DNA of 63,782 nucleotides, counting the filler, from Lenisia limosa (lineage: Eukaryota; Protista; Breviatea), in NCBI GenBank assembly GCA_001655205.1. It is 10 parts of 10 records of this genome, joined end to end, with 100 filler letters (N's around TTAATTAATTAA, not from the genome) between each part and the next. Parts side by side here need not be neighbours in the genome. Positions count along the whole stretch, not along the records: positions 1 to 5,002 come from LPNZ01004941.1; positions 5,103 to 6,908 come from LPNZ01001583.1; positions 7,009 to 25,248 come from LPNZ01006526.1; positions 25,349 to 36,812 come from LPNZ01006245.1; positions 36,913 to 46,245 come from LPNZ01005566.1; positions 46,346 to 47,643 come from LPNZ01004228.1; positions 47,744 to 49,104 come from LPNZ01010750.1; positions 49,205 to 52,819 come from LPNZ01008954.1; 2 more parts are not named here. One strand, given 5' to 3'. Shown piece by piece: positions 1-63,782 of this stretch. Each line of letters starts with the position of its first letter. The stretch's first letter is position 1. The translations under genes and the position numbers were made by a program. The notes under the pieces were generated by a model. That model saw only the letters and a list, made by a program, of their open reading frames with translations. It was not told the DNA's origin and did not search any database.

Positions 1-204
1 GGGGGGGGGGGACATATGAATATAATATGATAAAATACAATAAAATGTATATAATTTGTATTGCGTATTCAGTGTGTACTATGTAAATATTACATGCCAG
101 CTGGCGGTTTAATATTGGATTAAAGCAAAGTATCAATTCACTGAAATATTTTAGTCATATCCCGTATTGACAGACCCCATTGCCTCCATAATCCATTTTA
201 ACCA

Positions 205-321
205 GAGCTTCACTTTCGGTTCAAACTAAGACTGAATCCTCGATAAATCCTCGCTAAATATCGATAAATCCTCGATAAATTGCGATATTCTGTCAGACTT
301 TTGAAACCGAAAGTGAAGCTC
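205..321. mobile_element. MITE family M copy
   Basis: GAGCTTCACTTTCGGTT...AACCGAAAGTGAAGCTC inverted termini; core duplicated internally. Confidence 0.85.
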
Positions 322-325
322 TAAT

Positions 326-3300
326 TTAAACCCTTCTAGTCATTCCTTTTTTTAATGCCATTAACAAAAACCTGGGGGGGGGGGNNNNNNNNNNNNNNNN
401 NNNNNNNNNNNNNNNNNNNNNNNNNNNNNNNNNNNNNNATACCGAACTGAAACTCCAAACAAACAAAAAAAACAAAAAAAAAACAAGCATTAACAAACAC
501 GAGCAATCAGCGCTATAACTAGATGACAAAAACAAAAACAAGCCCGAGCCAGCCTTTGAAGAGTCCCACCACCGCTCGATCACCCAAACGTATGTGTAAT
601 TGTATTTTAAAAATATACCATCCATAGTTAATGTCAAACCTGGGGGTGCCACATGCCATTGATGTTGGTAAGAAGCTTCGAAATGTGCCATAACGCTCTC
701 GTAAAGACAGGGAGGGTTAAAAGCTGACGTGGGGGTACGGAGGCGCCTTCGTCCTCTGAAAACAGTAAGTCTTTGTACGCTGCAGTGTTGTGAGTAGGGC
801 TTCACTTCAGTTCGAAAAATACTGGGAAAATATCGATAGTTTCGAGGATTTATCGAGAAATTCAGTCTTTTAATGAACCGAAGTGAATCCCTACTTGTTA
901 TGCAAAGAATTACTATGTTGGGAAGGAATGAACAAAGTTGTGCAGAGTTGCCAGGTAATTGATTAGGTATAACTATAGTCCCCCCCCCCCNNNNNNNNNN
1001 NNNNNNNNNNNNNNNNNNNNNNNNNNNNNNNNNNNNNNNNNNNNNNNNNNNNNNTGAAGGTGGCAATTGGCCGCCACATGCGCAGACGTGACGCAACATG
1101 CGAGGCGTCCAGGCGCGGCGGATCCGTGTTAGAGAATAGTCCAAGGTATCTAGAGGGGGTAAAACAAAGGAAATTTCGGCGAAGAATATTAACAATCTGA
1201 AAGCGAAGTAAAAAATGGATGAAATAAGCAAGAGAGAGAGAGAGAGAGGGTAGAGGGGGGGGGGTAAATATGATAATATATCATATATATATTAAAAAAA
1301 CAAAACAAAACAAAAAATCAACAAATTTTTAGATCCTCATTACTCTGATAAAACGTCCTCTGAACGGCCAAATAACTACCCCCATAAACCCTGCTTACGT
1401 GCAGAGAGCAGCGGGAGACGCCATGGCCTGGGTCATCTCAGGGGCTATATGGTCAGAAGTCGGGACAGAGTATCATTATGCATAGACAATGATTTTCTAC
1501 ATAGCCCACATTCCTTATTTCTCTGTTATAATGAATCATTATTCATAGACATATCAGACACCACATTCCATTATTCACATAGACATATCAGACATAACCC
1601 ACATTCCAGGGTCTCAAGCTCGGGTTTCAGCAGATCATTGACTGTGGCTGCCACCTCGGCCGAAGTGCTCAAAAAAGGGGCCAACTGTGGGGCGGGAGAT
1701 GAGATGATAAAGCAGGTTGCGGTTGGAGAATCTGGCTCGGTCGAAGGACAAAAACAACCGTAAACGAGCGTAAGTTGCGTTATTCAGATTTAGTGTATTA
1801 AAAGTAATTATTAACCGCAACCTGCTTTAAAGGCTGCCGACACACACCCTATAATCAACACAACATCCCACACAAAAATGCATACACAACTAGGGCTTCA
1901 CTTCGGTTCAAGAAAGATTGAATTTCTCGATAAATCCTCGAAAACTAGCGATAATTTACCGGTCTTTTTCAAACCGAAGTGAATCCCTCGCCAACAGCAA
2001 TACAAGCTTCTCGCGAGTGCACAGCTTCTCCAGGCATGTCATGGGACAGGAAGGGCCCGAGACACTGCACAACAAACTGGATGTCTGTCGCCATCAACTT
2101 GCCGCTCTGGGGGGTGGAGGGGAGTAAAATTGGAATATTTATGAAACAACCCAGATCAACTCTGTTGGCTGACAACACACGAGTGTTGATAACAACAAAA
2201 CANNNNNNNNNNNNNNNNNNNNNNNNNNNNNNNNNNNNNNNNNNNNNNNNNNNNNNNNNNNNNNNNNNNNNNNNNNNNNNNNNNNNNNNNNNNNNNNNNN
2301 NNNNNNNNNNNNNNCTTACATCAGTACAAAGACGGACAATGACACCACTAGCCTTCCGACGAACAGCAATGGAATCTAGGGAGAGTTTCCTAATATGGTA
2401 AGTTCAGTTAAGGGCTTTTCTAATAATATGGTAAGTTCGGCTAAGAGGTTTCTCATATGCCCCCCCATTCCCACGAGTATTCGGTATTTTCCTCTGCTGC
2501 CGTTTTGAAGCCGATCAACTTGGCCGTTTCTTGGAAGATTGTGCGAAGGGCCTGGGGGTAACACGAGGGTGGTGGAGGAAAATTCGATACACAAATAAAG
2601 CATCCACACGCTGATAAAAGATATTGGATAATAGTAGCAAGCCGAAGCCGTCCATTCCATCACGCTTATGAGAGTTATTGGATTATAGCATTGGTAATAT
2701 ACTATAATATACACTAATTCCAACCCCCACATCAGGCTTGGTGCTAAACCAAGGCGAAAACGCTTCAACACACGACAGGAGACGGGAAATTAGGAGGGGC
2801 AGCTGTGGGGTAGCCTGGAATAGAACGGTAATACACGCTCCACAGAGCTCGTCAATTTTCTGTGGGGGGGGGGTGAGTAGAATGAAGGGACAAAGAAGAA
2901 GAAGAAGAAGAAGAAGGTACTATTTTTGGATAATTTGGAGACAGATGCAAAACGATACTCAATAAACATAACATGATATAATATAACTGCAACACCCCAG
3001 CACACATAGCCAAGCCACTAATCCAGTTTTAAGCGTAATTAATAGAGTACTATACTCAACTACAACAATATTAAAAGTGCCGAACCAGACCGCTCACGCC
3101 AATATAAAGGGGCTGATTTTTGTTCTCTGGCCCTGGGCTCAGCCACTCCCTGTTAACATCAGATTTTGTTTAAAAGTAAATGCTAGATTGAGTTCTTTTA
3201 AAGGAAGCACAAAATGTAATTTTAACGTAAATACCAGATTATGGTATTTAAGCAAACACATCGTGAAAGATCAAATTATGTTGAGGAATATTGGGTTGTA

Positions 3301-4960
3301 ATAACTACATTTATTGAAGGAAACGAATGTTGGATGCTAAGACCCCCTTTTTTCAAAGCAAATTTATCTCCCTCCCCACTTTTTCAAGGCACTCAAGATG
3401 GCGTCACAGGAGATGCCGAGGGCGTCCAGCTCACGGGACGGTCTGGGCTGATACTGGTCACTGGACGGGGGGATCTGGAGGCGTGAATGTAGGGGTACCC
3501 GCTCCACCCTACGTATGTATTTATTTACCAAGAAGTTATTAATTTGGCTACATGTACGTTTACTGCGATACTGACACGATTGGCAAAGTCAAGCTCAATA
3601 TCCGTGATAGTACTTTTGCGTATAAGCTCTCAAGCAAGGCCATACCTGAGAAACCTGAGGAAGAGTATTACTGAGTTGATGAAGAGCCCACTCCAGCGTT
3701 AGGACTATAAAGTGAGCATTTTACCACAATACTGAACAGTGAGTATTCATTGGACTACATATACATACATTGACTAGGATAAGTCTCTACCGATTGTCCT
3801 TGAAAAATCATGTAACAAATCGGTCAAGACTTATCCCGGTCAATGTGTATAGTGAGTTTTTATCAAAAATCACGTTTTTAAGCGCCACTATTGGTACTAC
3901 GGGTTAGGACTAAATAGTGAGAAAGGATAAGTCTTGACCGATTTGCCCGAATTGCTATGTGCTTTCCAAAGGAAAATATGTCGACTTATCCCGGCCACAG
4001 GGCGGGTACTGGAGTGTGCGGTATGATAAGTAGATGATGACCTTGCCCACACACTCCATTTAAAAACCATCTTCACAAAAAAAAAAGAATTATTTCACCT
4101 TCTTGAGACCTAACCGACCTTAGACCCCGTCCAAATCAAATCTTGCGATCCTACAAACAAAGGCCTCAACAAAAGTGGGATGTTTAAAGCACCTCACCCC
4201 CCACTCGGCAGTTTGAGTCCGATGGTGGTGAGGGTGCGGGAGGTGACGTGACGAACAGTCGCAAAGAAAGGCAATACCTGGTNNNNNNNNNNNNNNNNNN
4301 NNNNNNNNNNNNNNNNNNNNNNNNNNNNNNNNNNNNNNNNNNNNNNNNNNNNNNNNNNNNNNNNNNNNNNNNNNNNNNNNNNNNNNNNNNNNNNNNNNNN
4401 NNNNNNNNNNNNNNCTTTGGATCACTATAATTCCCCCCACAATGTCATAATCAAGCATCACGGTCATTGCAAGCACCTTGTTGTTGTCTACAGGGTTTCT
4501 GGGGAGGGGGAGTATTAATGCAAGACAATATTAACACTACAATCCTACGATACTAATACAGTAACAATAAAGTGAGTCTTGACGGACATAGGCTTACGGA
4601 GAAATGATGGACTGGAAAAGCAAGGGCAGAACCTCAGCCACAACTTTGGAGTCCTTTTCAAAGGGGATGCTCTACATTGGTAATTTCATTAAACAGCAAG
4701 AAAATACACTAGGAAATTTCCTTAAACAGGAAAAACACATAACAATTCCGATGCTCTGAATGGACGGTAAAGATGACAGCATAAAACAAAAGGTCACCCC
4801 CCAAAGAGAAATAACATTTTTACTCCCCGCCCCACTTGGACACAATCATGCCACGCCCCCGCAAGCATAATGGCGATATATGGGCTGGGGTGGCGGCTGA
4901 GAGAAAGCAGAAGATTCAGCAAGGGCATAACTGACGAGATTCCTTCGTCTGTGGGGAGGA
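326..4960 (-). CDS. XPO5: Exportin-5/HASTY/Msn5-like karyopherin, multi-exon internal fragment
   Basis: GT-AG bounded exons read, in order: DEGISSVMPLLNLLLSLSRHPSPYI, VLPFFATVRHVTSRTLTTIGLKLP, RELDALGISCDAILSALKK, KIDELCGACITVLFQATPQLPLLISRLLSCVEAFSP, ALRTIFQETAKLIGFKTAAEENTEYS, KLSLDSIAVRRKASGVIVRLCTD, SGKLMATDIQFVVQCLGPFL. These are colinear with recalled XPO5 segments (FTTHPSQFL; DPLILSCVLTNVSALFP; NVRRHACSSIIKMCRD). Ends are uncertain. Confidence 0.65.
797..891. mobile_element. MITE family M, ~95 bp, TA-flanked (Tc1/mariner-type, non-autonomous)
   Basis: TIRs GGGCTTCACTTCAGTTC / GAACCGAAGTGAATCCC with TA on both sides and the shared core ATCGATAGTTTCGAGGATTTATCGAGAAATTCAGTCTTT. Confidence 0.9.
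1893..1987. mobile_element. MITE family M copy
   Basis: Same TIRs and core; in an XPO5 intron. Confidence 0.88.
3760..4057. repeat. Cluster of intronic inverted repeats (family E)
   Basis: GGATAAGTC..CCGATT / AATCGG..GACTTATCC hairpins at 3777-3836 and 3925-3991, plus GGAGTGTG/CACACTCC at ~4010-4057. Confidence 0.75.
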
Positions 4961-5046
4961 CGGGTGAGATTGGAAAATTTATGAAACAAATAAGCTCAAA
5001 ATNNNNNNNNNNNNNNNNNNNNNNNNNNNNNNNNNNNNNNNNNNNN

Positions 5047-5058: not shown

Positions 5059-5202
5059 NNNNNNNNNNNNNNNNNNNNNNNNNNNNNNNNNNNNNNNNNN
5101 NNAAAACACGAGGGTTGATAACAACAAAACATACAGTACCACATCCCATCACCACCGAAATTCACTATCATCACCATATTTATTCACCATCATCACCACA
5201 GG

Positions 5203-6900
5203 ACTTCCTTTCGAGTCTTGAGCAGTCAGCGGCCGACTCGCTCCATGACACCATGTTGCATGCATCTCTCCTTAGTAGGCCTGGTTTATGGTGTCAATGT
5301 CAGCTTTTTAATAACTTACAACTGGAAGAACAATGTAACTGGCACAGCTTTTCGAGTAAACACGACCTTGTTGATTCTCTGGGATTCTCTGCTTCGTTTT
5401 TTTTTTTCTTTCTGGATTACGTTCCCGCTTACTCCCCCCCNNNNNNNNNNNNNNNNNNNNNNNNNNNNNNNNNNNNNNNNNNNNNNNNNNNNNNNNNNNN
5501 NNNNNNNNNNNNNNNNNNNNNNNNNNNNNNNNNNNNNNNNNNNNNNNNNCGCCTAACACGTGCGTTGCGTTGCACTGCCACGTATATTGCATACCTTGTT
5601 ACGAGGGACCGTCTTGCTGAGAGTCTTGCTGATATCAAGGTAAATTGGGGACTATAATAATATGGTTTATTGTTTCATTACATTTATCATCTTATATTCG
5701 GTTTGTGAATTAATAAAAGCCACTGATCGCGAAAATCTTGATCAAATGAAGATGGCAAACACTATGATTGATATGCTTAAACGGAGGTTATTTAATATCT
5801 TACCCCAATGTAAGATCCTTTTTGTTTTCCAAATATTAGAGGCAAAATTACAATATCTAACTCACACCTTATTAGGACCTCTCCCGGCCTTCTTCATCGA
5901 CAATCGAGGACCCGGGTACCTGGCTGGCCACTCGGGGTTCCTGGCTAGTAGACACTCTCACCGGCGTGCATTGCGAGGCACCAGAGGAACCATTCATGGC
6001 TCCTCTGTTCTGGGCTCTCAAAATACAGGTATGGCTCTGAACCAGTTGTTCATTTCATTTCAGTTCAGATTTATGTTATTTTTATCAAATTATTACTACA
6101 TGTGTATAATAATTGAAATAAAGTTAATCAGGAACAGTTCAGATGTTATCAGATCATATATATAATACATAAGATACAGTACATGTATTTCTCACCAGTT
6201 CCATTCCACTTAACACCACCACCACCCTTGATTCTCCTTTTAGGCATTCCCGACCCTCATATCGGCTCACCTTCTCACGGAAGTTCTTTCTGTTGTCCTC
6301 CAAGCCGTTCCAGTCTCTCCTGCATCAGCTATCATTGCAGCCTTTTTTGTGTACGCTGCAAGAATAATGGGGTCTCAGTATTTTTTTCTTTCTAAATCAT
6401 ATGATATGTATGATACCACTCACTAAACCAATTCTGCGTCTTTTAAAAGGACAGCTTAATCTGGGCGTTGCTTTTCAAAGTACAATTCAAAATTCAACAA
6501 TGCCAATGATACACTTGGGTGACACTGACAAACTCTGCAGACCCCTGACGCCAGCATTATCACAGCACCACAACCCGGCGGTCAAGGCGCTGGCATTGGA
6601 GATTACTGGAACAGAGGGACCGCTGAGTCCAGAGAAGTTGGTTCGACCATATCTTCAATATATGCCATACTACATGTATATTATATAGAAATATAATTAT
6701 ATATATATATCATATATAATATGTGCTGTTTCATATTATTATGATCACCATACCATATGTAACTTTTGTTGCTCCCACCACGAACACCGCACACACAAAG
6801 TTTAGACTCAGGATATTGGATATGTTTCTTTCTTTCATTAAATGTTCCATTTTTACGATGGGATGCGGTGGTCAGAAGCGACTGGCCGGGGCTTTGTTTG
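5203..6900 (+). CDS. Multi-exon hypothetical helical protein fragment
   Basis: AG/GT-bounded exons such as DFLSSLEQSAADSLHDTMLHASLL, RLTRALRCTATYIAYLVTRDRLAESLADIK, AFPTLISAHLLTEVLSVVLQAVPVSPASAIIAAFF, RPLTPALSQHHNPAVKALALEITG. No family recognised. Confidence 0.5.
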
Positions 6901-7029
6901 TTGTGTTGNNNNNNNNNNNNNNNNNNNNNNNNNNNNNNNNNNNNNNNNNNNNTTAATTAATTAANNNNNNNNNNNNNNNNNNNNNNNNNNNNNNNNNNNN
7001 NNNNNNNNGGGAGCTGCACGATAGGCAAA

Positions 7030-14578: not shown

Positions 14579-17500
14579 ATGATAGTTGGAGATGCTGAGA
14601 TGGGATTCCAATCCGTTTTCCACAAGCATATACTCTTCCTGGTGTTAACTCGTTCAGACGGTTATAACAAAGGATTGAACCTTATTATTCATGTAAATAA
14701 TGTATTAACTTGGTTAATAAAAACGTTAAATGTTAACTCGCTAGTGTCGGAGCAACTGACGTGTTGCGTTTGTATGGATATCTTTGATGATCCTGTGATC
14801 AACAGCTGCGGACATAACGTCTGTCGCAAGCATATCAGCGTAGGTGTGGGGACTTTTAATGAGATAATATTGGATATTGGGTTTGTTTTGTCAGGCGATT
14901 TTTGACTTGTCTTTGAAAAACAGTTCCGAAGAGTTTCTCACACATTCCAGAAGTTACACGGCCAATGCCCCACCTGCCGGAAGAGTTGGGATAGCGACAC
15001 GTCGAACTACTCTCTCAAAGACATTATCAGGGTGAGCCATATCTCTCAGAACAATTCAATGATGTTAATGTCTCATGATATACAACATGAGATTATATTT
15101 TGACTAGCAGCCGCACTGAACGTTGATCAATTTTTTTTCTGAAACATTGAAGAGTATGTAACTATATAGACCTTCAATGCTGGTGATCTTGCTGAGTCCC
15201 CCTCCGCTGCCCAACAAGAGTTTGTGGCAACTGATGTGAATTATGAACTTGTGCAAAATGTTGCTACCATTTTCCTATTTGCGCGGATAAAAACAGGTGT
15301 TTGATGCACAGCTGTATATAAAGCGGTTTTTACTTGTCAATACTTGCGATAGTGCCCATAATCTGACTAATTAAGGAGACAGCCCGCTAGAGTGGTTGCC
15401 TCAATTTCGGAGGCACCTTTCCAGCCAAGTGTAGGTTGGGGTGAATATGGGGTTCTCTTTTTGAATTTCCATTTTTTTTATCTTTTCAGAGTGGATGGAA
15501 TGATGAGACTGACGAATTACCAGGTTTGACACCATTCGGCTATTAAAAGGCGGGATTCCATATTGGAAACCCCATGATATTGGATAATTTCAAGGCATTG
15601 AACGGACCCTTGAATACTCTCTTGGGATTTATTTTTGTGTGTGGTGATTTTGGCGTATGTTCAACTTTAGATTAAGAATTCTATCCACATGTGTCCCGGA
15701 TAATATCCAAGACATTTTCCTGTTTTTTTTTTTGGGTATTTTCATGTATTGACATAAATTTATTGAGCATAATTTTACTTGCTCTCTTTTAGGTAAGCTT
15801 GAAGACATGTCCGATGCCCCACTTACTGAGGATGAGAAGCATGATGGTCAAAAGGTGGGGTTACGAGTAAAGGGCTGTTAATCTAATGATTTTGATGCTC
15901 AAATGGCTGAGGCATAGTATCGAAGTTTTTCAAAGATTTATTATTGAGAGGAGTGTTTACTGATGTCACCTTCCCAGCTACTTGTTACGCGACTTCTCTT
16001 TTCAAAAGTAGCCAATAAAGACCCCGAACACCTGCTGCCAGGTACGCTTCTCATCATTGTCCCAACTAATAATCCTAACTATGCTGGGAGGCACGCAGAA
16101 AGCTGTGTGCACAGATTTGTGCGACAAATGATTGGGTGAATTAATATTATACTATAATTCAATATTCTTATAAACGTGATGGTGTGGATGGCTTCGGCTA
16201 GATAAAACCTTGTTTTTTTAAAGATAATCGGTTTAGAAATCCTCTCCACGTGGAATGAGATCGAGGGTCGAGAGAGTCGTGATAAGTTCTTCCTCTTCCT
16301 TGACCAGTTGGCCTGGGTGGAGTATTAACCTTTCATAATGACATATGCGTGGAGATATTTCATCGATGAATATCTTCATTCAGTCTTTATTGTATGACTA
16401 TTTAGAACGAAAGCCATGTCAACAGATGGTTTGTGAGATTCTCTTTACCTGATTTGCTGACTAAATATCTCAATCAGACAAGTCAAATGGTTTATTTTCC
16501 TATAATTCTAATTAATCTCAAATAAGCATTCAGCTTTTTGACAACAATGCTCAACTCTTTAGATGCCTCAGTTCGTATCATGAACATTTTGGGCTTCCCC
16601 CAAGAAATCAACAGAGTGGGGCTATTCTCACTACAAACTGCCTCGAAAGGCCTCCAAATAACATGGTTTATGAGGTGGCTATATTTCATAAACAACTAGG
16701 TGGTTCAATTTTAATCGTCAACCCTCTGCTGGGTTTATGTCTGCTGTATGTCACTGTGTTTTACCTTTGGGGTTGTTTTTGCATGTTGTCAAAATGTTCA
16801 TTCTCCCTAACCTCCTCTGATGGTTTACACCAATGTCCCTTATAGGGCTTCACTTCGGTTCGAAAAAAAGACTGAATTTCTCGATAAATCCTCGAAAACT
16901 GTCGATATTTTACCGGGTTTTTTTGAACCGAAGTGAAGTCCAAGTCCCTTAGTTTCATCCCTTCAGCTCCTGGGACTATTCAACCGAAAGGAAGACAGAA
17001 TGATCATCAACGGCCTGCTATTTGCCCTCGGAAACATGATGACCGCGACACCAGAACGACAGGATTCGGATGTCCTCAAGGCCGGCCTTTTGTCTAACGT
17101 CGTAAAGGCTCTTGAGAACAACATCAATGACACTGATATTTTCGAGTTAGGAGGATGGCCAAATAACATACTGTTCATGATAGCGTCGCCCAGTTGATGG
17201 GTGTACTTTCTCAATAGCCCTGTATGACTCTCTTGGAGAAGCCATTATTGAGCTTCGACCCCCATTATTGAGCTTCGCATTGACCCCCCTTTAGGTATTC
17301 AGTCGGAATTGCGAGCAACGTCAAAGGCAATTGTGAGGGGGGGGGGGCAAGAGAAATAGAAGGGGGAGAGGAGCATATTATGTAATTTTAGAAACAAATT
17401 GGATCAAAATTCAACTTTATTCGAGATTCAAGCGATTAGTTAAAAATAATTGAATATAAGATATACCGCGCGAATCGCTCAGATTGCTATTTTGTCTTTT

Positions 17501-23500: not shown

Positions 23501-24074
23501 ATATTTGACCGGTCTTTTTTGGACCGTGGGAGCCCAATATACTATGATACAAATGTATAATACAACTCTATGATACTGTTTTGTTTACCCCTTAGAACAG
23601 CCAACCCAACCCCAACTGCCGCAGATTCTACGCCCAATTCAAAGACGATAATGATGATGGTTGGGGGGGGGGGGGCAAGGAAAATGGNNNNNNNNNNNNN
23701 NNNNNNNNNNNNNNNNNNNNNNNNNNNNNNNNNNNNNNNNNNNNNNNNNNNNNNAGATCCTTTGAGTCGACCTTTCATTAGTTTCCTTCTTACCCCCCCG
23801 ACTCGGGCTTGTTTTTGTTTGTGTTTTTTGTCATCTGGCTTTTGTCTTGTTGTAGCGTTGGTTGCTCGTGTTTGTTATTCCTTTTTATTTGTGTTTGGAG
23901 TTTCAGATTATTCGGTTCGTGATTAGTACCTTTACTCCAATTTCATCGATTCCTTCGTTTTACCTTAGAGTTGATTTGGGTTTTTGTTTTTACTCCTCAG
24001 ACAGCGATGACGACGCAGAAGTTAACCAGTTGCTCAGAGCGCTGTTCATTAGCGCAGCCCTGCATGCCTCCTAA
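14579..24074 (+). CDS. RING-finger plus ARM/HEAT-like repeat protein (putative E3 ligase), dozens of exons; may be more than one gene
   Basis: Exons 14745-14839 and 14951-15031 splice in frame to CCVCMDIFDDPVINSCGHNVCRKHISKLHGQCPTC (RING). Later exons look ARM-like (IINGLLFALGNMMTATPERQDSDVLKAGLLSNVVKALENN). Same-strand exons continue to DSDDDAEVNQLLRALFISAALHAS* (stop 24074). Confidence 0.6.
16845..16941. mobile_element. MITE family M copy
   Basis: GGGCTTCACTTCGGTTCGAAAAAA...TTTTTTGAACCGAAGTGAAGTCC; intronic. Confidence 0.9.
21455..21601 (+). repeat. 4 x 36-37 bp tandem repeat containing AG and GTGAGT splice signals
   Basis: Unit CAGGTATACCCAAACGGGTGAGTGGGCTGCAGTACGT, contiguous with no spacers. 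Confidence 0.9.
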
Positions 24075-46245: not shown

Positions 46246-46497
46246 NNNNNNNNNNNNNNNNNNNNNNNNNNNNNNNNNNNNNNNNNNNNTTAATTAATTA
46301 ANNNNNNNNNNNNNNNNNNNNNNNNNNNNNNNNNNNNNNNNNNNNCAGGCTGTAGAATCGACTGACCTGGGCTGTGTTGTTGTTTTCAACCCTCATGATT
46401 GAAAGGTTTTTTTTTTGTTATTTCATCATTTGAAAAAAACATCATAAAATGCTTAGGGGCTCTTTCCTCTATTTTAAAAGTCACCCTACCCACGATA

Positions 46498-47606
46498 ACC
46501 ACTCAGAAAGCTCCATGGACGTGAAATCTATGAACATCGATCCTTTCGTCATGGCTAAATGCTCCTCCGTGGGAAGGGGTTTCTATGTTGAGTTGTCAAG
46601 CAAATGATGGGTGAATTAGTGTTTATCTTACTATAATCATTAACCATTATAAACGTGATGGTGTGGACAGCTTCGACCTGGTACTCTTATTGTTTCTCAT
46701 TTCTACATATTAAGGCTTCTTTTAATTTCATTCACATTTTCAGGTCTGTATCGCGATGGTCCAACGTGGGTAGACGAGGCTACTGATATACGACATAATT
46801 AGGGCTTCAATTCGGCCTACACAGACCATAATCGATATTTTTCACCATACTCTTTTTATTAGTTATTAGTTCTCTACCTTGCGGGGGGGGGGGGNNNNNN
46901 NNNNNNNNNNNNNNNNNNNNNNNNNNNNNNNNNNNNNNNNNNNNNNNNNNNNNNNNNNNNNNNNNNNNNNNNNNNNNNNNNNNNNNNNNNNTAATGATTC
47001 GGGTTTTTCAACATACAATAAGCTTCATGAGTACATGCTCTTTACTGTTCTCATTTTGTTACTCATACTACATGGTGCGAGTTTCACAATGGGCCACTAT
47101 ATTTCAGAGTTGTCAGGCAAATGATTGGGTGAACTAGTTTAACCATTATAAACGTGATGGTGTGGACGGCTTCGGCCTAATACTCTTATTTTTTCTCATT
47201 TCTACATTATTTCTTACTCACAAATAACTATTGTAGTTGGTGAATCCGCGGTGATCACGCCGGACTCCTACTCATCCACATCTAGCCTCCCCAAGGTCAT
47301 GCTAAGCTCAGGCACTCCGGGTGGGTCTTAACTATTGCTGAGCTTTTTGTGTTAGGGCTTTTCTACTGTCCGGAAAATGACAGGTTGTCGAGAATTCAGT
47401 TTTGGAGTGAAGCCCTATGCTCAACACATACCGATAAATGAGCCTTATTTTGATGAGTATATGTATGTGAGTCACCTTTGCAGGCCAATACTTCCTGAAG
47501 GCTACCGGTCGCTCAGTAGCTGAGGAGTCAACCTGGTTCACTCTCATCCACCCCATCAAAAACATCACCATCGTCACCCAGCCTATGGGCCTCAACAACG
47601 ATGCGG
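46498..47606 (+). CDS. Hypothetical multi-exon fragment, beta-rich or surface-protein-like
   Basis: Exons ESSMDVKSMNIDPFVMAKCSS, VGESAVITPDSYSSTSSLPKVMLSSGTP, QYFLKATGRSVAEESTWFTLIHPIKNITIVTQPMGLNNDA. Confidence 0.4.
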
Positions 47607-48361: not shown

Positions 48362-48993
48362 GAAGACGAGTTTCCCGGGCTCAAGATCATGAGGGAGGAA
48401 GCCCATCTGAACCTTGCCAAGCTCACTGCCGCCACTGTGGGGGGGGGGGGGGNNNNNNNNNNNNNNNNNNNNNNNNNNNNNNNNNNNNNNNNNNNNNNNN
48501 NNNNNNNNNNNNNNNNNNNNNNNNNNNNNNNNNNNNNNNNNNNNNNNNNNNNNNNNNNNNNNNNNNNNNNNNNNNNNNNNNNNNNNNNTCCCAACGCCGG
48601 CGCATAAGGAGGAAAAGCACTACCGGTCGCGGATGGACGAGACGCCCAGTCACGGCGGCGGACTTTCTCGCGACGCCAAGAGTCGCGTTGAGCGTCAGGC
48701 TGATCGCCACCGTGATCGTAGGGGGTTGGACTAGCAATATGTGGTACCTTACGAGTCATTATTCTTCATCGAAATTTCCTTAGTTTTGCTAGTTGATTTT
48801 GGGTTTTTTTTGATTCATAAATTGCATTTGTTTTACCCCCCTCCCCTCCAGGCAACCGGAGTCGCGAGGACCGTGACCGTGATTATCGTGACCGTCGGAG
48901 CTCCAAAGACCGGCCGCGTAGTGAGCGCCGCGATAGAGACGACAAATATGAGCGCCGAGGCTCGGAGCGAAGAGGCTCTGAGAGGAGTGACAG
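48362..48993 (+). CDS. DHX38: PRP16/DHX38 pre-mRNA splicing helicase, N-terminal fragment
   Basis: EEKHYRSRMDETPSHGGGLSRDAKSRVERQADRHRDRRG matches the recalled DHX38 motif RHYRSARVETPSHPGGVS and is followed by an R/D/E-rich exon. The helicase core is not in the window. Confidence 0.62.
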
Positions 48994-49210
48994 GTTTGGG
49001 AGGTGTGGGGTGGAATTTAATATGTTAAGCCTACAGTGGATTCGGGTTTTTATTGTTTTTTCACAAATTTTCCAATTTTACTCCCCCCCCCCCTCCACTG
49101 GAGTNNNNNNNNNNNNNNNNNNNNNNNNNNNNNNNNNNNNNNNNNNNNTTAATTAATTAANNNNNNNNNNNNNNNNNNNNNNNNNNNNNNNNNNNNNNNN
49201 NNNNCCCCAG

Positions 49211-49636: not shown

Positions 49637-49686
<50 letters not shown>

Positions 49687-52451
49687 TTTAACATTTCCAG
49701 GGGCCTCGGTGGCGAAAACAAGGCGGTTCCGCGNNNNNNNNNNNNNNNNNNNNNNNNNNNNNNNNNNNNNNNNNNNNNNNNNNNNNNNNNNNNNNNNNNN
49801 NNNNNNNNNNNNNNNNNNNNNNNNNNNNNNNNNNNNNNNNNNNNNNNNNNATTTTCAACCACTTTTCACTTTTGTCTCCATTTCTATCACATTTCTGTCA
49901 GCAGTGCAATAACCCCGCAGATCTCGCCATCCATCCAAGACCTGCGCAACCCTGCCCTCAAGCCGCGCCATTGGGATAAAATCCAAGATATCCTGGGGCA
50001 GCGCCTGGTTAGGGATGACACCTTCACGCTCGGCCTTCTCATGGACTTGAATCTGCCGCATTGTGGGGGGGGGGGGNNNNNNNNNNNNNNNNNNNNNNNN
50101 NNNNNNNNNNNNNNNNNNNNNNNNNNNNNNNNNNNNNNNNNNNNNNNNNNNNNNNNNNNNNNNNNNNNNNNNNNNNNNNNNNNNNNNNNNNNNNNNNNNN
50201 NNNNNNNNNNNNNNNNNNNNNNNNNNNNNNNNNNNNNNNNNNNNNNNNNNNNNNNNNNNNNNNNNNNNNNNNNNNNNNNNNNNNNNNNNNNNNNNNNNNN
50301 NNNNNNNNNNNNNNNNNNNNNNNNNNNNNNNNNCTTTTGTTGTTTCAAAATTTTCCAATTTTACCCCCCCTAGTCAAGCAGCCCGTTGCGGCCGTATCAG
50401 CAGAGGCGACTCAGGAGGCAGCCCTCGAGGAGAGCATCAAGAAGGTGGGGGGTTTAGAGAAGGTATAAAGAATGTTCAGAAGGGGACAGAAAGCCCCCCC
50501 CCCCCCTTTTNNNNNNNNNNNNNNNNNNNNNNNNNNNNNNNNNNNNNNNNNNNNNNNNNNNNNNNNNNNNNNNNNNNNNNNNNNNNNNNNNNNNNNNNNN
50601 NNNNNNNNNNNNNNNNNNNNNNNNGATCCTTCCCTGCAGAGACTACAAGGACGTCTTCATCCTAGGCGGTATGCATGGGCCTGTTTTTTTGTTGTTGTTG
50701 TTCTCAACCCTTGTGTGTTGTTAGCCAACAGAGTTGATTTTTGCCTTCTTTTTTTTGCTTGATAAACATTTTTGAGGAAATTTATATACATAATTTGAAA
50801 AAAAGTGTCTGAAATGGGGTTCTCGCTACAACAGGTCTCACTTCAAATTTTTCAATTAATTTATCAATTAATTGCACGGAGCCCTAATTCACCATTTAGC
50901 TGTCGACGAGATCCAGCAACTTCTCGAGGACACCCATGTTACAGTCACTACTATCAAGGTGGGGGGAAATGGATTCAACTATTGAACAAGAAGAGTGTAT
51001 GCTATCACTGTTTTTTTTTCTCTCATTGCAATGTAAACATGATATAGCATATTATACATATGATATCTGTTCATATTGGCACGTTACGTCCTTCCTTTTC
51101 CTATGAAAACCGTATGCTAAGATAATGTAGGGTTCACGCTATTCCGGGCCAATTAAGGCGCTGGTTGACGAGTGGGATCGCACGCTGAGTCTTTTCGGTG
51201 ACACCCTTGAGGAGTGGTTGACCTGTCAAAGAGACTGGTANNNNNNNNNNNNNNNNNNNNNNNNNNNNNNNNNNNNNNNNNNNNNNNNNNNNNNNNNNNN
51301 NNNNNNNNNNNNNNNNNNNNNNNNNNNNNNNNNNNNNNNNNNNNNNNNNNNNNNNNNNNNNNNNNNNNNNNNNNNNNNNNNNNNNNNNNNNNNNNNNNNN
51401 NNNNNNNNNNNNNNNNNNNNNNNNNNNNNNNNNNNNNNNNNNNNNNNNNNNNNNNNNNNNNNNNNNNNNNNNNNNNNNNNNNNNNNNNNNNNNNNNNNNN
51501 NNNNNNNNNNNNNNAGGTATGTTATATCGTTTGTTTTCATATTTTTTTTTTATTTTTTTTTTGTAATTTTAATATTTTTATGATAAATATTGAGATATTC
51601 ATTTCTCCAGGTTGACAAATGGTGGCGTGATTTGATGAGGCGTACGCGCGATTCTCCAAACGCCCTTCGTGCTACCACCCAGGTATTGAATATAATATAT
51701 TATCTCAATTTGACAATTACGACAAAAAAAAAAGCGATCGCCTTCCAAATAAGGCAACCCGGCAACCTTCCTTATTAGGAAGGCTTGAAAAACAACGCAT
51801 GATTTTCGTATTGCGAGAGTCTTCCCGTGACTCCCTGCATCATCTCCCATGCAATATTCGACAAGCGGCGTAATCCCCTCGTGGCTCTCTCCTTATAACG
51901 CAGCTTTTTTCTCAGAATCGGCCAAGAACACCCGATTCTGACTAGCCAGCTGCTAGACTGCCCAGGGTTGCTGTCCGTTGTCATTTAAAATCCGGGAGTT
52001 CAGTTCATTTTTTAATGAACTGAACTGTCGTTTTTTGCCGTGTTAAACCCTGATCAACCCTCGCAAAACCCTTTTTTAAGGCAGAGCGAGGTTTATTTCT
52101 GGGTGTTTTCTCTGCAGTTTTCCGGACAGCGGACACATTTTGACCCCCCCCCAGGACGGCCTTTTGCAGACACTCAACTCGCACAACAAAGCCCTGGCCC
52201 AGGTTGGAGGAGGGGGGGGGGGATATATATACGGTGACCGGAATAAGTCTTGATCGATTTGCTGCTGATTTTCCCAAGGAAAATCGTTCAAGACGAATCT
52301 CGGTTATGTCTTTGTTATAAAAAGTCTCACGCATGGGTTAACGTATCCCCATGTATTTATTTGTTTCCCATAATTTTTTATGTGTTGTCACCACGTAGGT
52401 ACACAAATGTCTGGAGGACTATCTCGAAACGAAGCGTCTCGCTTTTCCTAG
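49211..52451 (+). CDS. DNAH6: Axonemal dynein heavy chain, DNAH6-like, linker (DHC_N2) region fragment
   Basis: Exons 49921-50062 (DLRNPALKPRHWDKIQ), 50374-50444 (AEATQEAALEESIKK), ..YKDVFILGG, 50900-50958 (VDEIQQLLEDT), 51131- (GSRYSGPIKALVDEWDRTLSLFGDTLEEWLTCQRDW), 51611-51682 (VDKWWRDLMRRTRDSPNALRATTQ), 52155-52202 and 52399-52451 (VHKCLEDYLETKRLAFPR) are colinear with DNAH6. Confidence 0.92.
49620..49685. repeat. (TTA)n(GTA)n microsatellite in a dynein intron
   Basis: Direct trinucleotide runs. Confidence 0.95.
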
Positions 52452-53278
52452 GTAAATTACATGGGAAATGAGAGAGCTGGGCGAAAGAATATATTTGTCT
52501 GCATTCANNNNNNNNNNNNNNNNNNNNNNNNNNNNNNNNNNNNNNNNNNNNNNNNNNNNNNNNNNNNNNNNNNNNNNNNNNNNNNNNNNNNNNNNNNNNN
52601 NNNNNNNNNNNNNNNNNNNNNNNNNNNNNNNNNNNNNNNNNNNNNNNNAAACAAGGAACCCTCTTGCTGTGGGGGGATATAGGATAACATATTTAGGTCT
52701 TCCCTACGTTCCCAAAAGACTGAATTTCTCGATAAATCCTTGACAATATCGATATTTCACAGTCTTTTCGGACCTAAGCAAGACTCTTCATATAATACAT
52801 GAATACATATACATGTTCTNNNNNNNNNNNNNNNNNNNNNNNNNNNNNNNNNNNNNNNNNNNNTTAATTAATTAANNNNNNNNNNNNNNNNNNNNNNNNN
52901 NNNNNNNNNNNNNNNNNNNGGGGGGGGGGGTGAGGACAAAATTGGAAAATTTAAGAAACAAAAACGCCCAAATCCACTCTGTTGGCTGATAACACACGAG
53001 TGTTGATAACAACAAAACAAATCAATAATGATATTTTTTATTGGGGGAGAGTGTTAAAAATGAACAATTGAAATACAAAAAATAATCACTCTCTGTTGAC
53101 TGACCATTTACCATGCAAAGGGCTGAAAATAAGAACACAAAAACAAAGTAAAGGCGTGCGATTAGAGAATATAAGGTACGTAAAACCTTAATATCCCCCA
53201 TTTTTAATCTCTCTTCAGAAACTGTTGTTATATTCGCTAGTACTTATGCACCATTATCTCGTATACTCCGCATATCTA

Positions 53279-53374: not shown

Positions 53375-55000
53375 TTACATTCGGTAGCAACCACTCCTCC
53401 TCCTCTTCCATTAATGACACTGGTCTTTCGGGGGTCTTTGGGCCCGAAATGGGCCAAAAAACCACTGTTCTAGTGCTTCCCTAAAATCCAAAAAAGACCG
53501 GTCAAATATCAATATTTATCGAGGATTTATCGAGAAATTCAGTCTTTTTTCGGACCATAGGGAACCTCTTATCAAACCGGACCCCCCCTCTCACTATTAA
53601 GCCACAGCATAGACTTTTCACCGATCGTAGCCATAACCGGATCGTGGCCGATCGTCAAATTGACCGCCGTGGGTCCGTCAAGATAGATCATATCCGTATC
53701 CGTGGCGTGCGCTACGCCAGAAGATGGCATAGAGACGCCAAGCATGAGACACGGGCCGCTGCTGGCGCCAGGGAGGCATGATGACGTGTCATCGTTGAGT
53801 CCGGTTGCGATGATGGGTGCGGCTGCGGGGGGGGGGGGNNNNNNNNNNTCTGTTGGCTGACAACAAACAAACAAACAAACAAACAAACAAACAAAGCCCC
53901 CACCAGAGCCGAGAAGCCCTTCTTGCTTCTAAACACTATGAAAATGACGGCCTTGATGATAGCGACGGCAGCGAGGAAGAGCGGAACGTCCTTGTAATTC
54001 ACACCGGAAAGTGCGACTAAAAGAACGACCGGCTGGAACGTGAGGAAAAGGGACATTAGAGAAGATGGAATTGGGATATGGCCTTTTTTTTTTATTTCAT
54101 TCAATGTAGTTTCTTGCTATTTGTCATATACAATGCATTTATATGTATCTGTATATCATATGTATACTGTATCTATACGCAGTATATTATGATATACATA
54201 GTACGATGTACGTCATCATAAAATCTTAAAAAACGTCCATCCGCCCACAATGACGTCAGCGACACCGGTCCAAAACCCTGCCCAGCACAAAATAGTCTGG
54301 AAAGAGCCACGGTTTGGGAGGTTCGGCTCCGTAGGGAGAAACAGTGAAGGCGGGAGGGACACGAAATGTTTCCCGGCTCGGGAGGCGGCCAAAATTGCCG
54401 GAGTCATGAGAAGGAGGGAGAGGAAGACGGAAATGAGGGCGCCCGTTATGAGCGGCGTGGGGAGGGGGCTGCCCACTATTGAAGAGAGCTGGGGGGTAAA
54501 ACGAAGGAAATTTCGAAGAATATTGGCGTAAAGGTACTAATCACGAACCGAATAATCTGAAACTCCAAAAAAAAACAAGCAACAACAAACACGAGCACCC
54601 AACACTAAAACTTGACAAAAACCAGCTGACAAAACACAAAACGAAGGAAATTTCGATGTTGAGGAATTTGATGATAGCAGGAAATGATAAGCACAAACGA
54701 AGATTGGATGAGCTCAATACCCACATCCGCCTCAAAGAGCCTCGCTCCAACCAAAATGCCAACACTATATCACTGAACAACGCTACATCCAAGACAGAAA
54801 ACACTCAACTTCCACCTTCCTCAACTCCGCCATGGCGGCGTTTTAACAAAGATTGGCAGTTGTACCGAACGTGATGTGCCAACATTGGTCACGAATGCCC
54901 CCTACCGGAAAGAGCGTTAAGCACGAAAAGAAGGAATAGTACCACTGTCAACAGCATAATGACGACAGTTGGAAGAGGTATGCGCTGGATAGAGAAATGG
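53370..55000 (-). CDS. Hypothetical multi-pass membrane protein fragment
   Basis: Hydrophobic exons RIPLPTVVIMLLTVVLFLLFVLNALSG, LITGALISVFLSLLLMTPAILAAS, PVVLLVALSGVNYKDVPLFLAAVAIIKAVIFIVF. Confidence 0.45.
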
Positions 55001-56779: not shown

Positions 56780-59700
56780 TGCCTACACTGGTGGGCTTGT
56801 AGTTGATGAAGCTGCTTGCACCCCTGGAAAAACACGAATTTCGGTAGGGGGTGTTGGGATATCAAAGATATTGCTGTCTATTCTGATAAAACCAATGTAA
56901 TGAAAGACGTCATCATAAACACTATTAAAATCATATATTTCTTAAATGTTTGTATCAAATGACTATCACGTAAGCTTGTGTAAGAATATCCGTAATTGTC
57001 AGGAACAACAACGTGCCTTAATCACAATATCGCTCATTTTTCGACATGACTGAATAGCAAACCAGGACTTTTTCGTCAACCCTTGAGTTTTTCCCACAAA
57101 ATTAACAAATTGTCCATGTATATTTTCCACTTATTAGCATTTTTACTTCGTAATTGTACCCCATTATCAGGTTGGCTCTACCATTCCGACTTCCCCCAAC
57201 TGCGGACTATCTGCTGCAGGCCCCCATGTAAACTGGTAAGTATTGGTGAACATATAAACTGGTGAACCAACATTGCGAGTCAAAATATTCCAGTATCAAC
57301 TGACAACTATAAGTCAGTGAGACATATTTCTGCTGTATCATGGTTTGTTTTTGTATAAACAAGACTTCATCTGAATAATTCCCTGAAACAATGACTTTAA
57401 ATATATTTTCTTTGTTCAAATTATGCAGCGTCCTCACATACTTTCAGCTTCTTAACCTGCTCGGATGTTGATAGTAGCGGCAGAAATAACATCATTTCCG
57501 TCCAAAAGGTTTGAAACAACAAATATTGAAATAGAAGCTAATTGATTAGAGAGACTACCTCATCAATGAGGTTATTCCCTCCATCGTGAAGTGGTATGAA
57601 GAAGCAATTACCGTGTTGACCCCCCAGCAATCAAGACGACTGGGTGAACGTATGTGATTCTATTTTGGATACAGGATTTTTTAAACGAAGAATTTTGAAT
57701 TATGCGATTAGTATACATATTAAGTATGTATATCATCACTACGGCGCATTGACTTGGAATTCATGTGAAAACGGTGGAATTATGGGAAATTCCATAAAAT
57801 TTTATGGAAATTTGAAGAAATTTATGGGTTTCCAAAATACCACAAGGGATTGCCAAGGAATACTGTTGTGTTTTGAAAATGCTCCTTATATTTGAAGTGG
57901 CAATACAACTCTAGGGCGATTGTGTTAACCTTTCAGTTCTTTCTGAACAATGGCGAAATTGGGAAGCTCTTGCTATCATACTATTTTACTCACATAAATA
58001 AAATTCAGATACCTTTTCTTGGGTTTCACCTCACAGTTCTGTGTAATCAGACCCCCAAACTACCCCATGATCCATCATGGATATTCCCTGGCATGGCGGC
58101 CGAAGACGACATTGCGATTATCATCACTGCCCGTCCCGACTTAGGTGAGCTAGATTTGGGAAGTCATGTTTCTTTGGCGAATTCAAACCTCTCTAATAAA
58201 CTATTTTTTGGGATAAGGGTTATTTGACAGGAAGACAATACATTTGAAATAAATGCTCTTAATACCAATAACAAGTTTATCATTAAAGCTTCCATTCATT
58301 TTACAGCCTTTTTTCTAAAAAAAAGAGAGAGCAAAGGAGCAGTCATCAAAACTTCCATCATCATCCCTCCCAGATATCACCTCATTATACAAACCTCAAA
58401 AATCACGATTTCACCTCTTAATACGCAGCAAGTGGAACTTTTGGTTTCGGTGTGCCTTGCCAAATTTCCTCTTCTAACTCAGTGGGCTATTAAGGACTAC
58501 ATTTTATTGTATTTTGCTATTAAAAAAATACATTTAATATTTTTAACCTGTGTGCTCTATTCTGCAATATACATATACATACTACATAAAATAAATAGAA
58601 ATCATTCATGTTCAATGACAATTTAGCGTCCCTCTCTGGGCTGGGTAAACATCAACCCCCTTCGAATTGACCCGACAGCTAATGATCCTGTTCATGGAGC
58701 ATTCTATGTATGTGGAGATATAACATTGATGTGGTGAGGGATAGTTTCCAAAAATTACAAAACCACAAGATAAATAGCACAAATAAAAACTTTAATTTTT
58801 TAGGCCAATATAATCATTTGACTGATCAGGCTAACATCAACCTAATTGGGGAATTCTATTATCTTGGCAGGCCAATATGATTGCACGGGACTTTGCTAGG
58901 CCACTGGGATTCTCATCAGCCTTCTTGCCGTCGCCTACGTCTTTTTACGTCTCCAAATCAACTTTCACGTTGAGTGGATATTATGGATTTGTTTAATCGT
59001 TAAACTTGTTACAAATGAATACTATCAAGATTAACTCTTAATATGAAATAATGTGTGAAGGTGTGTCTAATCAGCTTTGAACTGAATACAATTCAATAGT
59101 CCCCAAGTGTGTTATTATTGGTTTTGGTTTGAGAAATAATACTTATATCCAATAACTCGTATTTTCGTGATGGTGTGGACGGCTTCAGCCAGATAATTTA
59201 ATCCGATATCTCTGATATGTGTGATGTTGAGGACTACTTTGTATCATTTGCCAGCAATACATACAGTAACCATTAAGGCGGCAACCAACGTCATCGTATC
59301 TCACGTTCACATCGAACCTCTTCCACATTTCTTCTCCAAATGGTAACATGGTGCAATTACATTACATTTTTGTCTTTTAACTGATATATTATTGTGTGAT
59401 ACTGAATTTCAAGCACAATAATCCCTTAATTTCCGTTTAAGTATCAGAAAACAAAATGCTATGTTGAATATTAACCAAATCTCGTCTTCAAATTTGTGAA
59501 CAAAATATCTCGTTTCATTGCCAAAAATTGAATATAATGTCACCAAAACTGCCCTTTCTGATTTTTCCAAACAAAATTGGTTAATCTAAATATCAGATAT
59601 CATATTAAGAGATTTCTTTTAAAATTCTATGTAATATGACACCATTTTACCCCCATTCAGTACAACAATGGGTTAGAAGCCACACTCAATGTCCAACAGC

Positions 59701-61950: not shown

Positions 61951-62480
61951 TGTCAGGTGAGGGAGGNNNNNNNNNNNNNNNNNNNNNNNNNNNNNNNNNN
62001 NNNNNNNNNNTTAATTAATTAANNNNNNNNNNNNNNNNNNNNNNNNNNNNNNNNNNNNNNNNNNNNGCTATATATATATATATCATATCTGTACATACAA
62101 TCTATAGCGATATGTCCTTCAAGCTAGGGATACGCTCTAATACATGGAGTAGTTTTTTTAAAAAAAAAAAGCCAAAGTAGTACAAGATACACAGGGATAT
62201 CAAAACACGTACTCCCCTTCTCCCCATCAATCAACTCATCAACTAATCAGAGTTTATTTTGGGTTTTTTTTCCCGATATATTACTATAACATTCTACGTA
62301 CGCTGGAGTGATGGGATGCNNNNNNNNNNNNNNNNNNNNNNNNNNNNNNNNNNNNNNNNNNNNNNNNNNNNNNNNNNNNNNNNNNNNNNNNNNNNNNNNN
62401 NNNNNNNNNNNNNNNNNNNNNNNNNNNNNNNNNNNNNNNNNNNNNNNNNNNNNNNNNNNNNNNNNNNNNNNNNNNNNNNA

Positions 62481-63622
62481 GAATTGGGAGGCCAACCGCA
62501 ACTGGAAGCCGCGCGGGGACCCGGGGGTTGGAGGAGTATTTACTGGATTATCATACTTTTAGCTTGGGGTAGAAGAGTATTTTTGGATTTTAAGGTGGGA
62601 TGTTGTTATTGTAATAAAACTAGGACTTCACTCGGTTCGAACAAGATCGGTAAACTATCAATAGTTTTCGAGGATTCATCGACCGAAGTGAAACCCTAAA
62701 TATATTTCATTTAACAATAATCTGGTGGGATGCCAAAAACAATAGCAAAATGCTGTGCTTAAATACTGTTTTAAAACACAAACACAGACACACATACAAA
62801 CTCACTATCCAGCTGCCTGACCACCCTGACATCCTGGGTTACTTTGGTGGGGGGGAAGTTTTAGTTATTCACCCAATCATTTGCCTTATCTCTGTGCACA
62901 CAGCTTTCTTGCCTACGCAGCATACGATAAAGGAAGAATCAGAATCTTTTGTTAAATACTCGCAATAATTAAAATATCTTAGATATGTTACTCGAAATAA
63001 TGGGCAACCTTCCGCCATTATTATATCACACTCATCACTATAGGCAACCTCGTGACTGTTGATGACATCGGCCTGGCTGAATCTCTGGGGTAAGGCAAAT
63101 TTGGAGGGGGTCAGGACTTCTCTTCTGTCCCAAGAAGACCAGTAAAAATGGATTGTTTTCGAGCATTCATCGGAAATTCAGTCTTTTGATGTAAATAATT
63201 TTTAAACCAATTGAGATTGAGAAATAGTGTACAAAGCTCAAACACTTTAGAGAATTCCACTCCAGGGCTCTCAATTCTTTTGTTGTAACCATAGTGAAGC
63301 CCAAGGGGGGGGGGGGGGNNNNNNNNNNNNNNNNNNNNNNNNNNNNNNNNNNNNNNNNNNNNNNNNNNNNNNNNNNNNNNNNNNNNNNNNNNNNNNNNNN
63401 NNNNNNNNNNNNNNNNNNNNNNNNNNNNNNNNNNNNNNNNNNNNNNNNNNNNNTTTAGGGCTTTCTTTGTTCGCTCAAATCAATATTATCCCCCCAGCTA
63501 TCTGCTGAGATCACGTCTCGATGCTGTCGTGGTCACATCGCAATACGGCGAGAACGAGGTGATAGACTTCTTCCGAACTAAGCGCCGCAACACTACCATC
63601 ATCAACCTCACCAATATTAAAG
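62481..63622 (+). CDS. SMC flexible-hinge domain protein fragment (SMCHD1/DMS3-like)
   Basis: Spliced exons give PDHPDILGYFGNLVTVDDIGLAESLGYLLRSRLDAVVVTSQYGENEVIDFFRTKRRNTTIINL, resembling hinge G..g.l..v.d.....l...l..vvv and SMCHD1 [34 protein letters not shown]. Confidence 0.6.
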
Positions 63623-63782
63623 TAAGTATATTGTATCAATATTAACGTAAGTAATATATTATGTTACATTTACCAATATGTAATTAGGCCCTAGCAATCT
63701 TACCAATATTAAAGTAATTATCTTACCATGGTAGAGTAAGTGTGTATATTATTAATCACGAGTATCAAATTTGGCTAAGCAT

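What the first reader, a model, noticed from the sequence alone, without database searches (positions are those of the whole stretch)
1..63782. At least three introner-like families (A, B, C) populate the introns of unrelated genes
Seen: the same 100-190 nt sequences recur in introns of exportin-5, dynein, PRP16, the cyclase, G-alpha, RING-ARM and WD40 genes on independent assembly pieces. Families A and B follow host-gene orientation in the copies I could assign and end at the acceptor (...TTTTACCCCCC.AG). Family C runs from GT to AG in two cases (30648-30783, 40202-40345). Known: introners are transposable elements that create introns in bursts (Micromonas, Aureococcus, fungi). Inference: several co-existing introner families drove recent intron gain here; I do not recognise them as described elements.
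Basis: partly seen in the sequence, partly recalled or inferred. Interest (0 to 1): 0.88.

Follow-up and report, generated by a model that had tools for sequence, protein, structure and literature searches.

The report
Mobile introns stacked at splice acceptors
Three short repeated sequences shaped like introns recur in many unrelated genes of this single-celled eukaryote, almost always in the gene's direction and at the far end of an intron, often piled one behind another, which suggests they likely spread by copying themselves onto existing intron ends rather than by creating new introns.

Summary
The three families are real: 20 A, 8 B and 20 C pieces in the window, none in shuffled controls, and abundant genome-wide. 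A and B run with the host gene in 27 of 28 cases and end at acceptors: 12 of 20 measurable copies lie within 12 nt, against 0 of 11 for a co-resident MITE. C is weaker (14 sense, 4 antisense) and its conserved part stops short of the AG. Full-length A and C begin with a donor-like GTAYGCTGG, so the units are intron-shaped. But they rarely fill an intron: similarity starts within 10 nt of the donor in only 2 of 18 mapped introns, 5' ends are ragged, and copies stack (B then A; C, A, A) with unrelated partners. There is no TSD, TIR or stable fold. Best reading: mobile intron-like units land, 3' end first, on existing acceptors. Classical introners that later decayed remain the main rival; one dynein intron looks like a whole, internally deleted A. 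Intron gain was not shown, and no relative was available to test it.

The parts
2107..2204 (-). Family A, body and tail, ends at acceptor 2107; 5' part in an assembly gap
4949..5001 (-). Family A tail at acceptor (contig end upstream)
5103..5160 (-). Family A 5' half, the only copy antisense to its assigned host
6834..6908 (+). Older A tail followed by a near full-length A head (stack; contig ends)
18883..19017 (+). A tail + A, ends at acceptor 19017
23798..24000 (+). B (23798-23965) followed by an A tail that ends at acceptor 24000
25070..25203 (-). B 3' half followed by A running into a gap before acceptor 25001
33740..33788 (-). A tail at acceptor 33740
33938..34132 (-). B, ends at acceptor 33938, starts 241 nt after the donor (34373, itself GTATGC-type)
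36590..36642 (-). B tail at acceptor 36590
39668..39804 (-). A ending at acceptor 39668; the GT at 39803 is a weak donor (score 1.2), use uncertain
45402..45609 (+). Three stacked A pieces in the G-alpha intron 45289-45609, last one ends at the acceptor
46346..46397 (+). A 5' part at a contig start, 3' part not recognisable
48744..48851 (+). B tail + A tail in the PRP16-like intron 48718-48851
49027..49097 (+). A 3' half with C-run at a contig end
50334..50373 (+). A tail at the acceptor of homology-verified dynein intron 50063-50373
50669..50899 (+). Homology-verified dynein intron that starts like the A head (internally deleted) and carries another repeat in its 3' part; best whole-intron candidate
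52921..53023 (-). A body and tail ending in a C-run at a contig end
53823..53903 (-). Short intron filled by 5'-truncated A from 3 nt after the donor (10-N gap inside)
54489..54660 (-). B tail + B, ends at acceptor 54489
62298..62481 (+). Full-length A head behind an older A-like tail, then a 160-N gap and an AG before an exon
439..566 (-). B 5' two-thirds running into a gap before acceptor 372; starts 73 nt after the donor
1150..1190 (-). B tail at acceptor 1150
2601..2691 (-). Two C 3' pieces, sense, in intron 2730-2552
16080..16220 (+). Full-length C inside intron 16042-16236: 38 nt after the donor, 16 nt before the acceptor
19872..20017 (+). Full-length C inside intron 19837-20033, 35 nt after the donor; a 21-nt direct repeat spans donor region and next exon start
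21043..21129 (+). 5'-truncated C, 16 nt before acceptor 21145
27157..27267 (+). C with intact 5' end in AT-rich DNA, host not assigned
30648..30778 (+).
40222..40345 (-).
45342..45375 (-). C 5' fragment, antisense in the G-alpha intron
46586..46720 (+). 5'-truncated C, 17 nt after donor 46569, 23 nt before acceptor 46743
47104..47207 (+). 5'-truncated C, 29 nt before acceptor 47236
59136..59241 (+). Two C 3' pieces, the second 13 nt before acceptor 59254
62851..62926 (-). C 5' half, antisense, abutting the G-run of donor 62847

Best explanation
A, B and C are intron-shaped repeats that sit in the gene's direction at the 3' ends of introns whose donors mostly do not resemble them, and they likely got there by being copied, 3' end first, onto acceptors that already existed. 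Shown: sense orientation, fixed 3' ends, ragged 5' ends, stacking with unrelated partners, no flanking duplication and no inverted ends. Inferred: the template is an excised intron RNA. [quoted passage not shown] It is then reverse-transcribed for a variable distance and closed on the 5' side by end joining. The new copy supplies the pyrimidine tract and often the AG, so splicing survives, the old 3' end stays behind as a relic, and the enlarged intron can seed further copies. Most insertions would lengthen or re-end introns; only rare full-length insertions into exons would add introns.
For: Orientation 27 of 28 for A+B (p=2e-7) against 14:9 for the MITE control. Acceptor within 12 nt for 12 of 20 against 0 of 11. 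B: all 7 visible 3' ends at model positions 179-186 of 187, 5' starts at 2-150. A: 12 of 16 visible 3' ends at 118 or beyond of 135, 5' starts at 2-93. Donor-to-family distance 3-271 nt, over 10 nt in 16 of 18 mapped introns, with 14 different donor hexamers. All 5 model-complete copies in mapped introns start 35-241 nt inside. Both complete A heads (window 62298, L004:100) lie behind an older A-like tail with no AG between. Gap-free intron L004:5081-5489 holds C, an A tail and an A in series. In 4 of 4 A+A stacks the partner is not the closest relative (ranks 13, 4, 2, 15 of 15), which fits separate arrivals. Precedents for the steps: reverse splicing into R-loop DNA is proposed for sense-only Micromonas elements (PMC4540971), and linear group II introns join their 3' end first and close the 5' end by end joining (PMC3280974 abstract).
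Against: No step of the mechanism was observed, and no reverse transcriptase or other mobilising gene was found in the window (266 ORF segments). Dynein intron 50669 aligns best of 47 intron starts to the A head (28.8 against 18.1 for the best non-family intron). GTAYGC donors occur in 3 of 18 family introns and 0 of 30 others (p=0.047), as expected if some introns began as whole elements. Acceptor-likeness upstream of the 5' junctions is only slightly raised (p=0.02) and partly circular. C-runs are a general acceptor feature (11 of 30 non-family introns), so short tail-only hits are partly circular. Only the dynein introns are homology-verified; other gene models are my own parse. C has 4 antisense pieces. 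Many gaps fall inside the repeats.
Confidence: 0.45

Rival explanations
1. Classical RNA-type introners: whole GT...AG units inserted into exons and made new introns. Later insertions, deletions and nested arrivals hid the 5' parts while the 3' splicing signals were kept.
For: Full-length A and C begin with a donor-like motif also used as a real donor at 34373 and 50669. Intron 50669 looks like an internally deleted whole A, and its flanking codons align without gain or loss to P0001. Intron 53903 is A from its fourth base. C at 30648 follows CAG with a strong donor score (7.4). Sense-only placement and nested or merged copies are described for Micromonas (PMC3879977). Introns here collect many later insertions and duplications.
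Against: In Micromonas intact introns outnumber remnants 6,112 to 463; here 16 of 18 mapped introns fail at the donor end. Complete 5' ends survive, but inside introns. Decay does not predict repeated arrival at the same acceptor.
Confidence: 0.3
2. DNA-level ectopic copying: breaks or stalls at the C-runs before acceptors are repaired by template switching to another intron's 3' end, so abundant intron tails spread without an RNA step or any mobility machinery.
For: C-runs and G-runs are common at splice sites and assembly gaps cluster there. About eight of the 20 largest short direct-repeat families overlap splice sites by my reading. Junctions often fall in T- or C-runs. It predicts sense orientation and 3' anchoring.
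Against: It should also place reversed tails at the donor G-runs; I saw none among the 28 A and B pieces, though two antisense C halves abut donor G-runs. It does not explain why three families reached high copy, or why complete units begin at a GT.
Confidence: 0.15
3. Ordinary non-autonomous transposons or SINEs insert anywhere; selection leaves only those that do not disturb splicing.
For: The genome has MITEs and DDE transposases. C occurs in both orientations. One C intron has a 21-nt flanking repeat.
Against: No TSD or TIR excess over 50 mapped introns. No Rfam match on A, B or C. The MITE in the same introns shows neither bias. Antisense copies should be tolerated but are 1 of 28.
Confidence: 0.1

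Closest known systems
Micromonas introner elements IE-A (Verhelst 2013, PMC3879977; Simmons 2015, PMC4540971)
   Same: Repeated intron-shaped units, sense orientation in transcribed DNA, nested or merged copies and remnants inside older introns, RNA-linked mobility proposed.
   Different: There nearly all copies are whole introns, with presence/absence polymorphism shown for IE-A and IE-C. Here whole-intron copies are rare, copies are 5'-ragged, anchored at acceptors and serially stacked; mean pairwise identity is 75-82%.
DNA-transposon introners (Gozashti 2022 PMC9860276, 2025 PMC12130899; Polarella ILEs, bioRxiv 2020.10.14.339549)
   Same: Several families in one genome; the element can carry the 3' splice site.
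   Different: No TIR or TSD, the donor is not recruited from a duplicated target, and similarity does not reach both intron ends.
[quoted passage not shown]
   Same: 3' end joined first, 5' end closed by error-prone end joining: the pattern the copies here suggest.
   Different: A ribozyme with its own reverse transcriptase and an engineered target; A, B and C are 140-190 nt, non-coding and not stably folded. A mechanistic analogy only.
Fungal introner-like elements (as summarised in PMC3879977)
   Same: Repeated spliceosomal introns that decay into ordinary introns.
   Different: Their conserved secondary structure is not seen here: 1 of 13 copies has z below -2.

Membership tests
Introner (Gozashti 2022 definition) | Similar sequence in introns of unrelated genes | tested here: met
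   further copies in L004-L007
Introner (Gozashti 2022 definition) | Similarity reaches near both splice boundaries | tested here: not met
   3' end yes for A and B; donor end within 10 nt in 2 of 18 mapped introns; three further candidates (30648, 40345, 39803) unresolved
Introner (Gozashti 2022 definition) | Insertion into exons creating new intron positions | not testable with these tools
   no own genome; no genomic dynein homologue found
Introner (Gozashti 2022 definition) | Removed by splicing | tested here: inconclusive
   dynein exons join in frame across two A-bearing introns; the RNA run bridged only one, non-family, intron
DNA-transposon introner | Target-site duplication and/or terminal inverted repeats | tested here: not met
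   family 11.7 vs other 11.7 (duplication test) and 8.7 vs 9.5 (inverted-end test) over 18 and 30 introns; short junction repeats p=0.23; one 21-nt exception
Micromonas IE-A type | Sense orientation only | tested here: inconclusive
   A 19 of 20, B 8 of 8, C 14 of 18; host strands from my parse
Micromonas IE-A type | Most copies are complete introns | tested here: not met
   against 6,112 introns and 463 remnants
Fungal ILE | Stable conserved secondary structure | tested here: not met
   sense z-scores -3.1 to +1.4, 1 of 13 below -2; MITE control -5.9 to -7.7
SINE | Head derived from tRNA, 7SL or 5S; flanking duplications (features recalled) | tested here: not met
   8 weak Rfam matches in the window, none on A, B or C; no duplication excess

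The most novel reading that the evidence does not exclude
A class of mobile introns that target the 3' splice sites of existing introns, probably through a half-completed reverse-splicing step, and so replace intron ends across a genome again and again, with only occasional true intron gain.
Probability: 0.3. Interest if true: 0.85.

Novelty: new variant of a known kind. Interest (0 to 1): 0.62.

Why it matters
How RNA-type introners move is unresolved. Thousands of sense, 3'-anchored, 5'-ragged copies would be a natural record of partial insertion events and would let the reverse-splicing model be tested at junction level. Screens that need similarity at both intron ends would miss such families. 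They would also show that splice acceptors themselves can turn over through a selfish sequence. If the classical reading holds instead, this is another intron-rich protist with three undescribed introner families, which is useful but not surprising.

Tried and rejected
No whole genome is held. No RNA holder was listed; the same-study RNA run gave 35 laid records and one spliced junction, so it says nothing on the families. A high-resolution read profile of the A and C boundaries was not obtained, so the genome-wide 5' boundary is open. Pattern scans found nothing for A in metagenome contigs or for C, A and B in viral contigs. A scan for genomic dynein homologues to compare intron positions found none. 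Homologue searches: one dynein hit; none for G-alpha or for one exportin-like exon; the full-library profile search was not run. Structured-RNA, TIR and TSD ideas were tested and rejected. Local tandem duplication or one rolling-circle event as the source of A+A stacks was rejected. An 'old acceptor before each copy' signal was weak. Earlier scan notes: none for this genome or sequence; the eight listed by words concern other genomes and did not bear. A recalled analogy with a trypanosome repeat that supplies acceptors was not confirmed and is not used.
Full report
Setting. The window is ten contigs joined by spacers, with many internal gaps, 37% GC. Genes are intron-dense; dynein heavy chain, G-alpha and a RING domain are confirmed by Pfam. 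The lineage was not determined. No whole genome is held. One DNA run holds the stretch. On 36913-46245, 17,231 of its 195,906 contigs were laid at 85% or more, with unique DNA at depth about 38 and repeat bins up to 100,000. Rough arithmetic gives some 4,000 A copies; the tool warns that this depth is not a copy number, so read it as 'thousands'.

The families are real. Profiles find 20 A, 8 B and 20 C pieces, and no hit in five shuffled windows each. Mean pairwise identity is 0.76, 0.82 and 0.75. A pattern scan found A in eukaryote-like contigs inside a bacterial bin, G001. Five such gap-free contigs gave 9 more A, 2 B and 2 C pieces. They share the repeat families and GC content, so they are probably the same or a close organism, not independent support.

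Orientation and 3' ends. Host strands come from my exon parse, not from RNA. A is sense in 19 of 20, B in 8 of 8, C in 14 of 18 (2 unassigned), the MITE in 14 of 23 (3 unassigned). For copies with a gap-free path under 400 nt to a mapped acceptor, the end lies within 12 nt in 8 of 14 A, 4 of 6 B, 2 of 14 C and 0 of 11 MITE; within 35 nt in 8 of 14 C and 1 of 11 MITE. Of the 8 A and B misses, 5 are followed by another A copy. C-runs before AG are general here (11 of 30 non-family introns), so the shortest tail hits are partly circular; copies with a body show the same pattern.

The 5' ends. Here the introner reading weakens. In 18 mapped window introns that carry a family, similarity begins 3-271 nt after the donor, within 10 nt in two, and the donors are 14 different hexamers (four of these introns have a gap between donor and family). 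The five model-complete copies among them start 35-241 nt inside. The gap-free contigs revealed A's real head, which begins GTAYGCTGG like C; both complete heads sit behind an older A-like tail with no AG between. B's real head may likewise be longer than my model. One 409-nt intron holds C, an A tail and an A in series (L004:5081-5489). Stack partners are not each other's closest relatives, so they arrived separately.

C's conserved part ends before any AG. The proposed acceptors score -1.3 and -1.4 against a median of 7.1, and parses forced through these donors lose 4-10 points. The model is crude: its free parse at 30648 wrongly reads the start of C as exon, because the AG just before C is a typical acceptor. 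That junction may be a copy landed directly behind an old acceptor, or a real exon end. It is unresolved.

Evidence for the introner rival. Dynein intron 50669-50899, verified against P0001 with no codon gained or lost, starts like the A head with internal deletions, the best of 47 starts. GTAYGC donors are 3 of 18 in family introns and 0 of 30 elsewhere (p=0.047). Intron 53903-53823 is A from its fourth base. So some introns may have been made or wholly replaced by an element.

No DNA-transposon or structured-RNA signs. There is no excess of flanking duplications or inverted ends over 50 mapped introns; the one exception is a 21-nt repeat at 19837, p=0.002 before correction for 50 tests. Folding z-scores are unremarkable, unlike the MITE's. 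Rfam has nothing on A, B or C. No mobilising gene was seen in 266 window ORF segments.

Mechanism. Strict sense, fixed 3' end, ragged 5' end and repeated arrival at acceptors point to copying that starts from the 3' end of an intron and is guided to acceptors. I favour an RNA template joined 3' end first (0.45). Whole-intron introners with later decay get 0.30, DNA template switching between C-runs 0.15, ordinary elements plus selection 0.10. All mechanistic steps are inferred.

Literature seen. PMC9860276: first of seven parts and passages. PMC12130899: passages. PMC3879977: whole Results and passages. PMC4540971: passages. bioRxiv 2020.10.14.339549: passages. PMC3280974: abstract. PMC2323293: passages, not useful. 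No supplements were read; the family lists in the supplements of the two Gozashti papers could include this organism, and the Micromonas figures of merged elements could show similar stacks. Searches listed no paper on acceptor-anchored, 5'-ragged intron repeat families; the library lacks most subscription journals.

Verdict. New variant of a known kind; interest 0.62.

Noticed in passing
window, 26 loci, e.g. 16843-16943, 23247-23334, 42211-42310: A ~100-nt palindromic MITE, the most common repeat, in both orientations inside introns; 8-bp flanking duplications at two copies suggest a hAT-type element (family trait recalled).
   Followed up: partly
7482-7572, 12595-12668, 19364-19432, 21456-21626, 24479-24529, 36278-36365, 46154-46245, 63603-63733; L005:280-345: Short tandem duplications of 20-50 nt that span a donor or an acceptor together with exon bases.
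   Followed up: partly
whole window: Donors are often GTGGG (17 of 50 mapped) and acceptors often end in a C-run (24 of 50); many assembly gaps sit at these runs.
   Followed up: partly
914-980 and 62851-62926: Two antisense C 5' halves abut the G-run of a donor, mirroring sense copies that face acceptors.
   Followed up: no
40413-40522 / 50769-50881; 38779-38900 / 57737-57856; 37563-37660 / 49335-49433; 3760-3851 / 52226-52294; 30128-30470: At least five further low-copy intronic repeat families, some with inverted ends; several recur in G001 contigs.
   Followed up: no
L004:1420-3750: A ~2.3-kb element with terminal inverted repeats inserted inside an A copy; DDE transposase fragments lie in L006 and L007.
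   Followed up: partly
L006:4060-5500: A DnaJ gene broken by what look like ~25-nt introns, far shorter than this genome's usual 80-500 nt; possibly foreign or a chimeric contig.
   Followed up: no
G001 contigs C39, C43, C60, C67, C69 (L004-L008): Eukaryote-like, intron-rich contigs are binned in a bacterial genome record.
   Followed up: partly
9001-9012 against 6874-6885 and 39788-39799: A 12-nt stretch just downstream of a C fragment is the reverse complement of part of the A head; may be chance.
   Followed up: no
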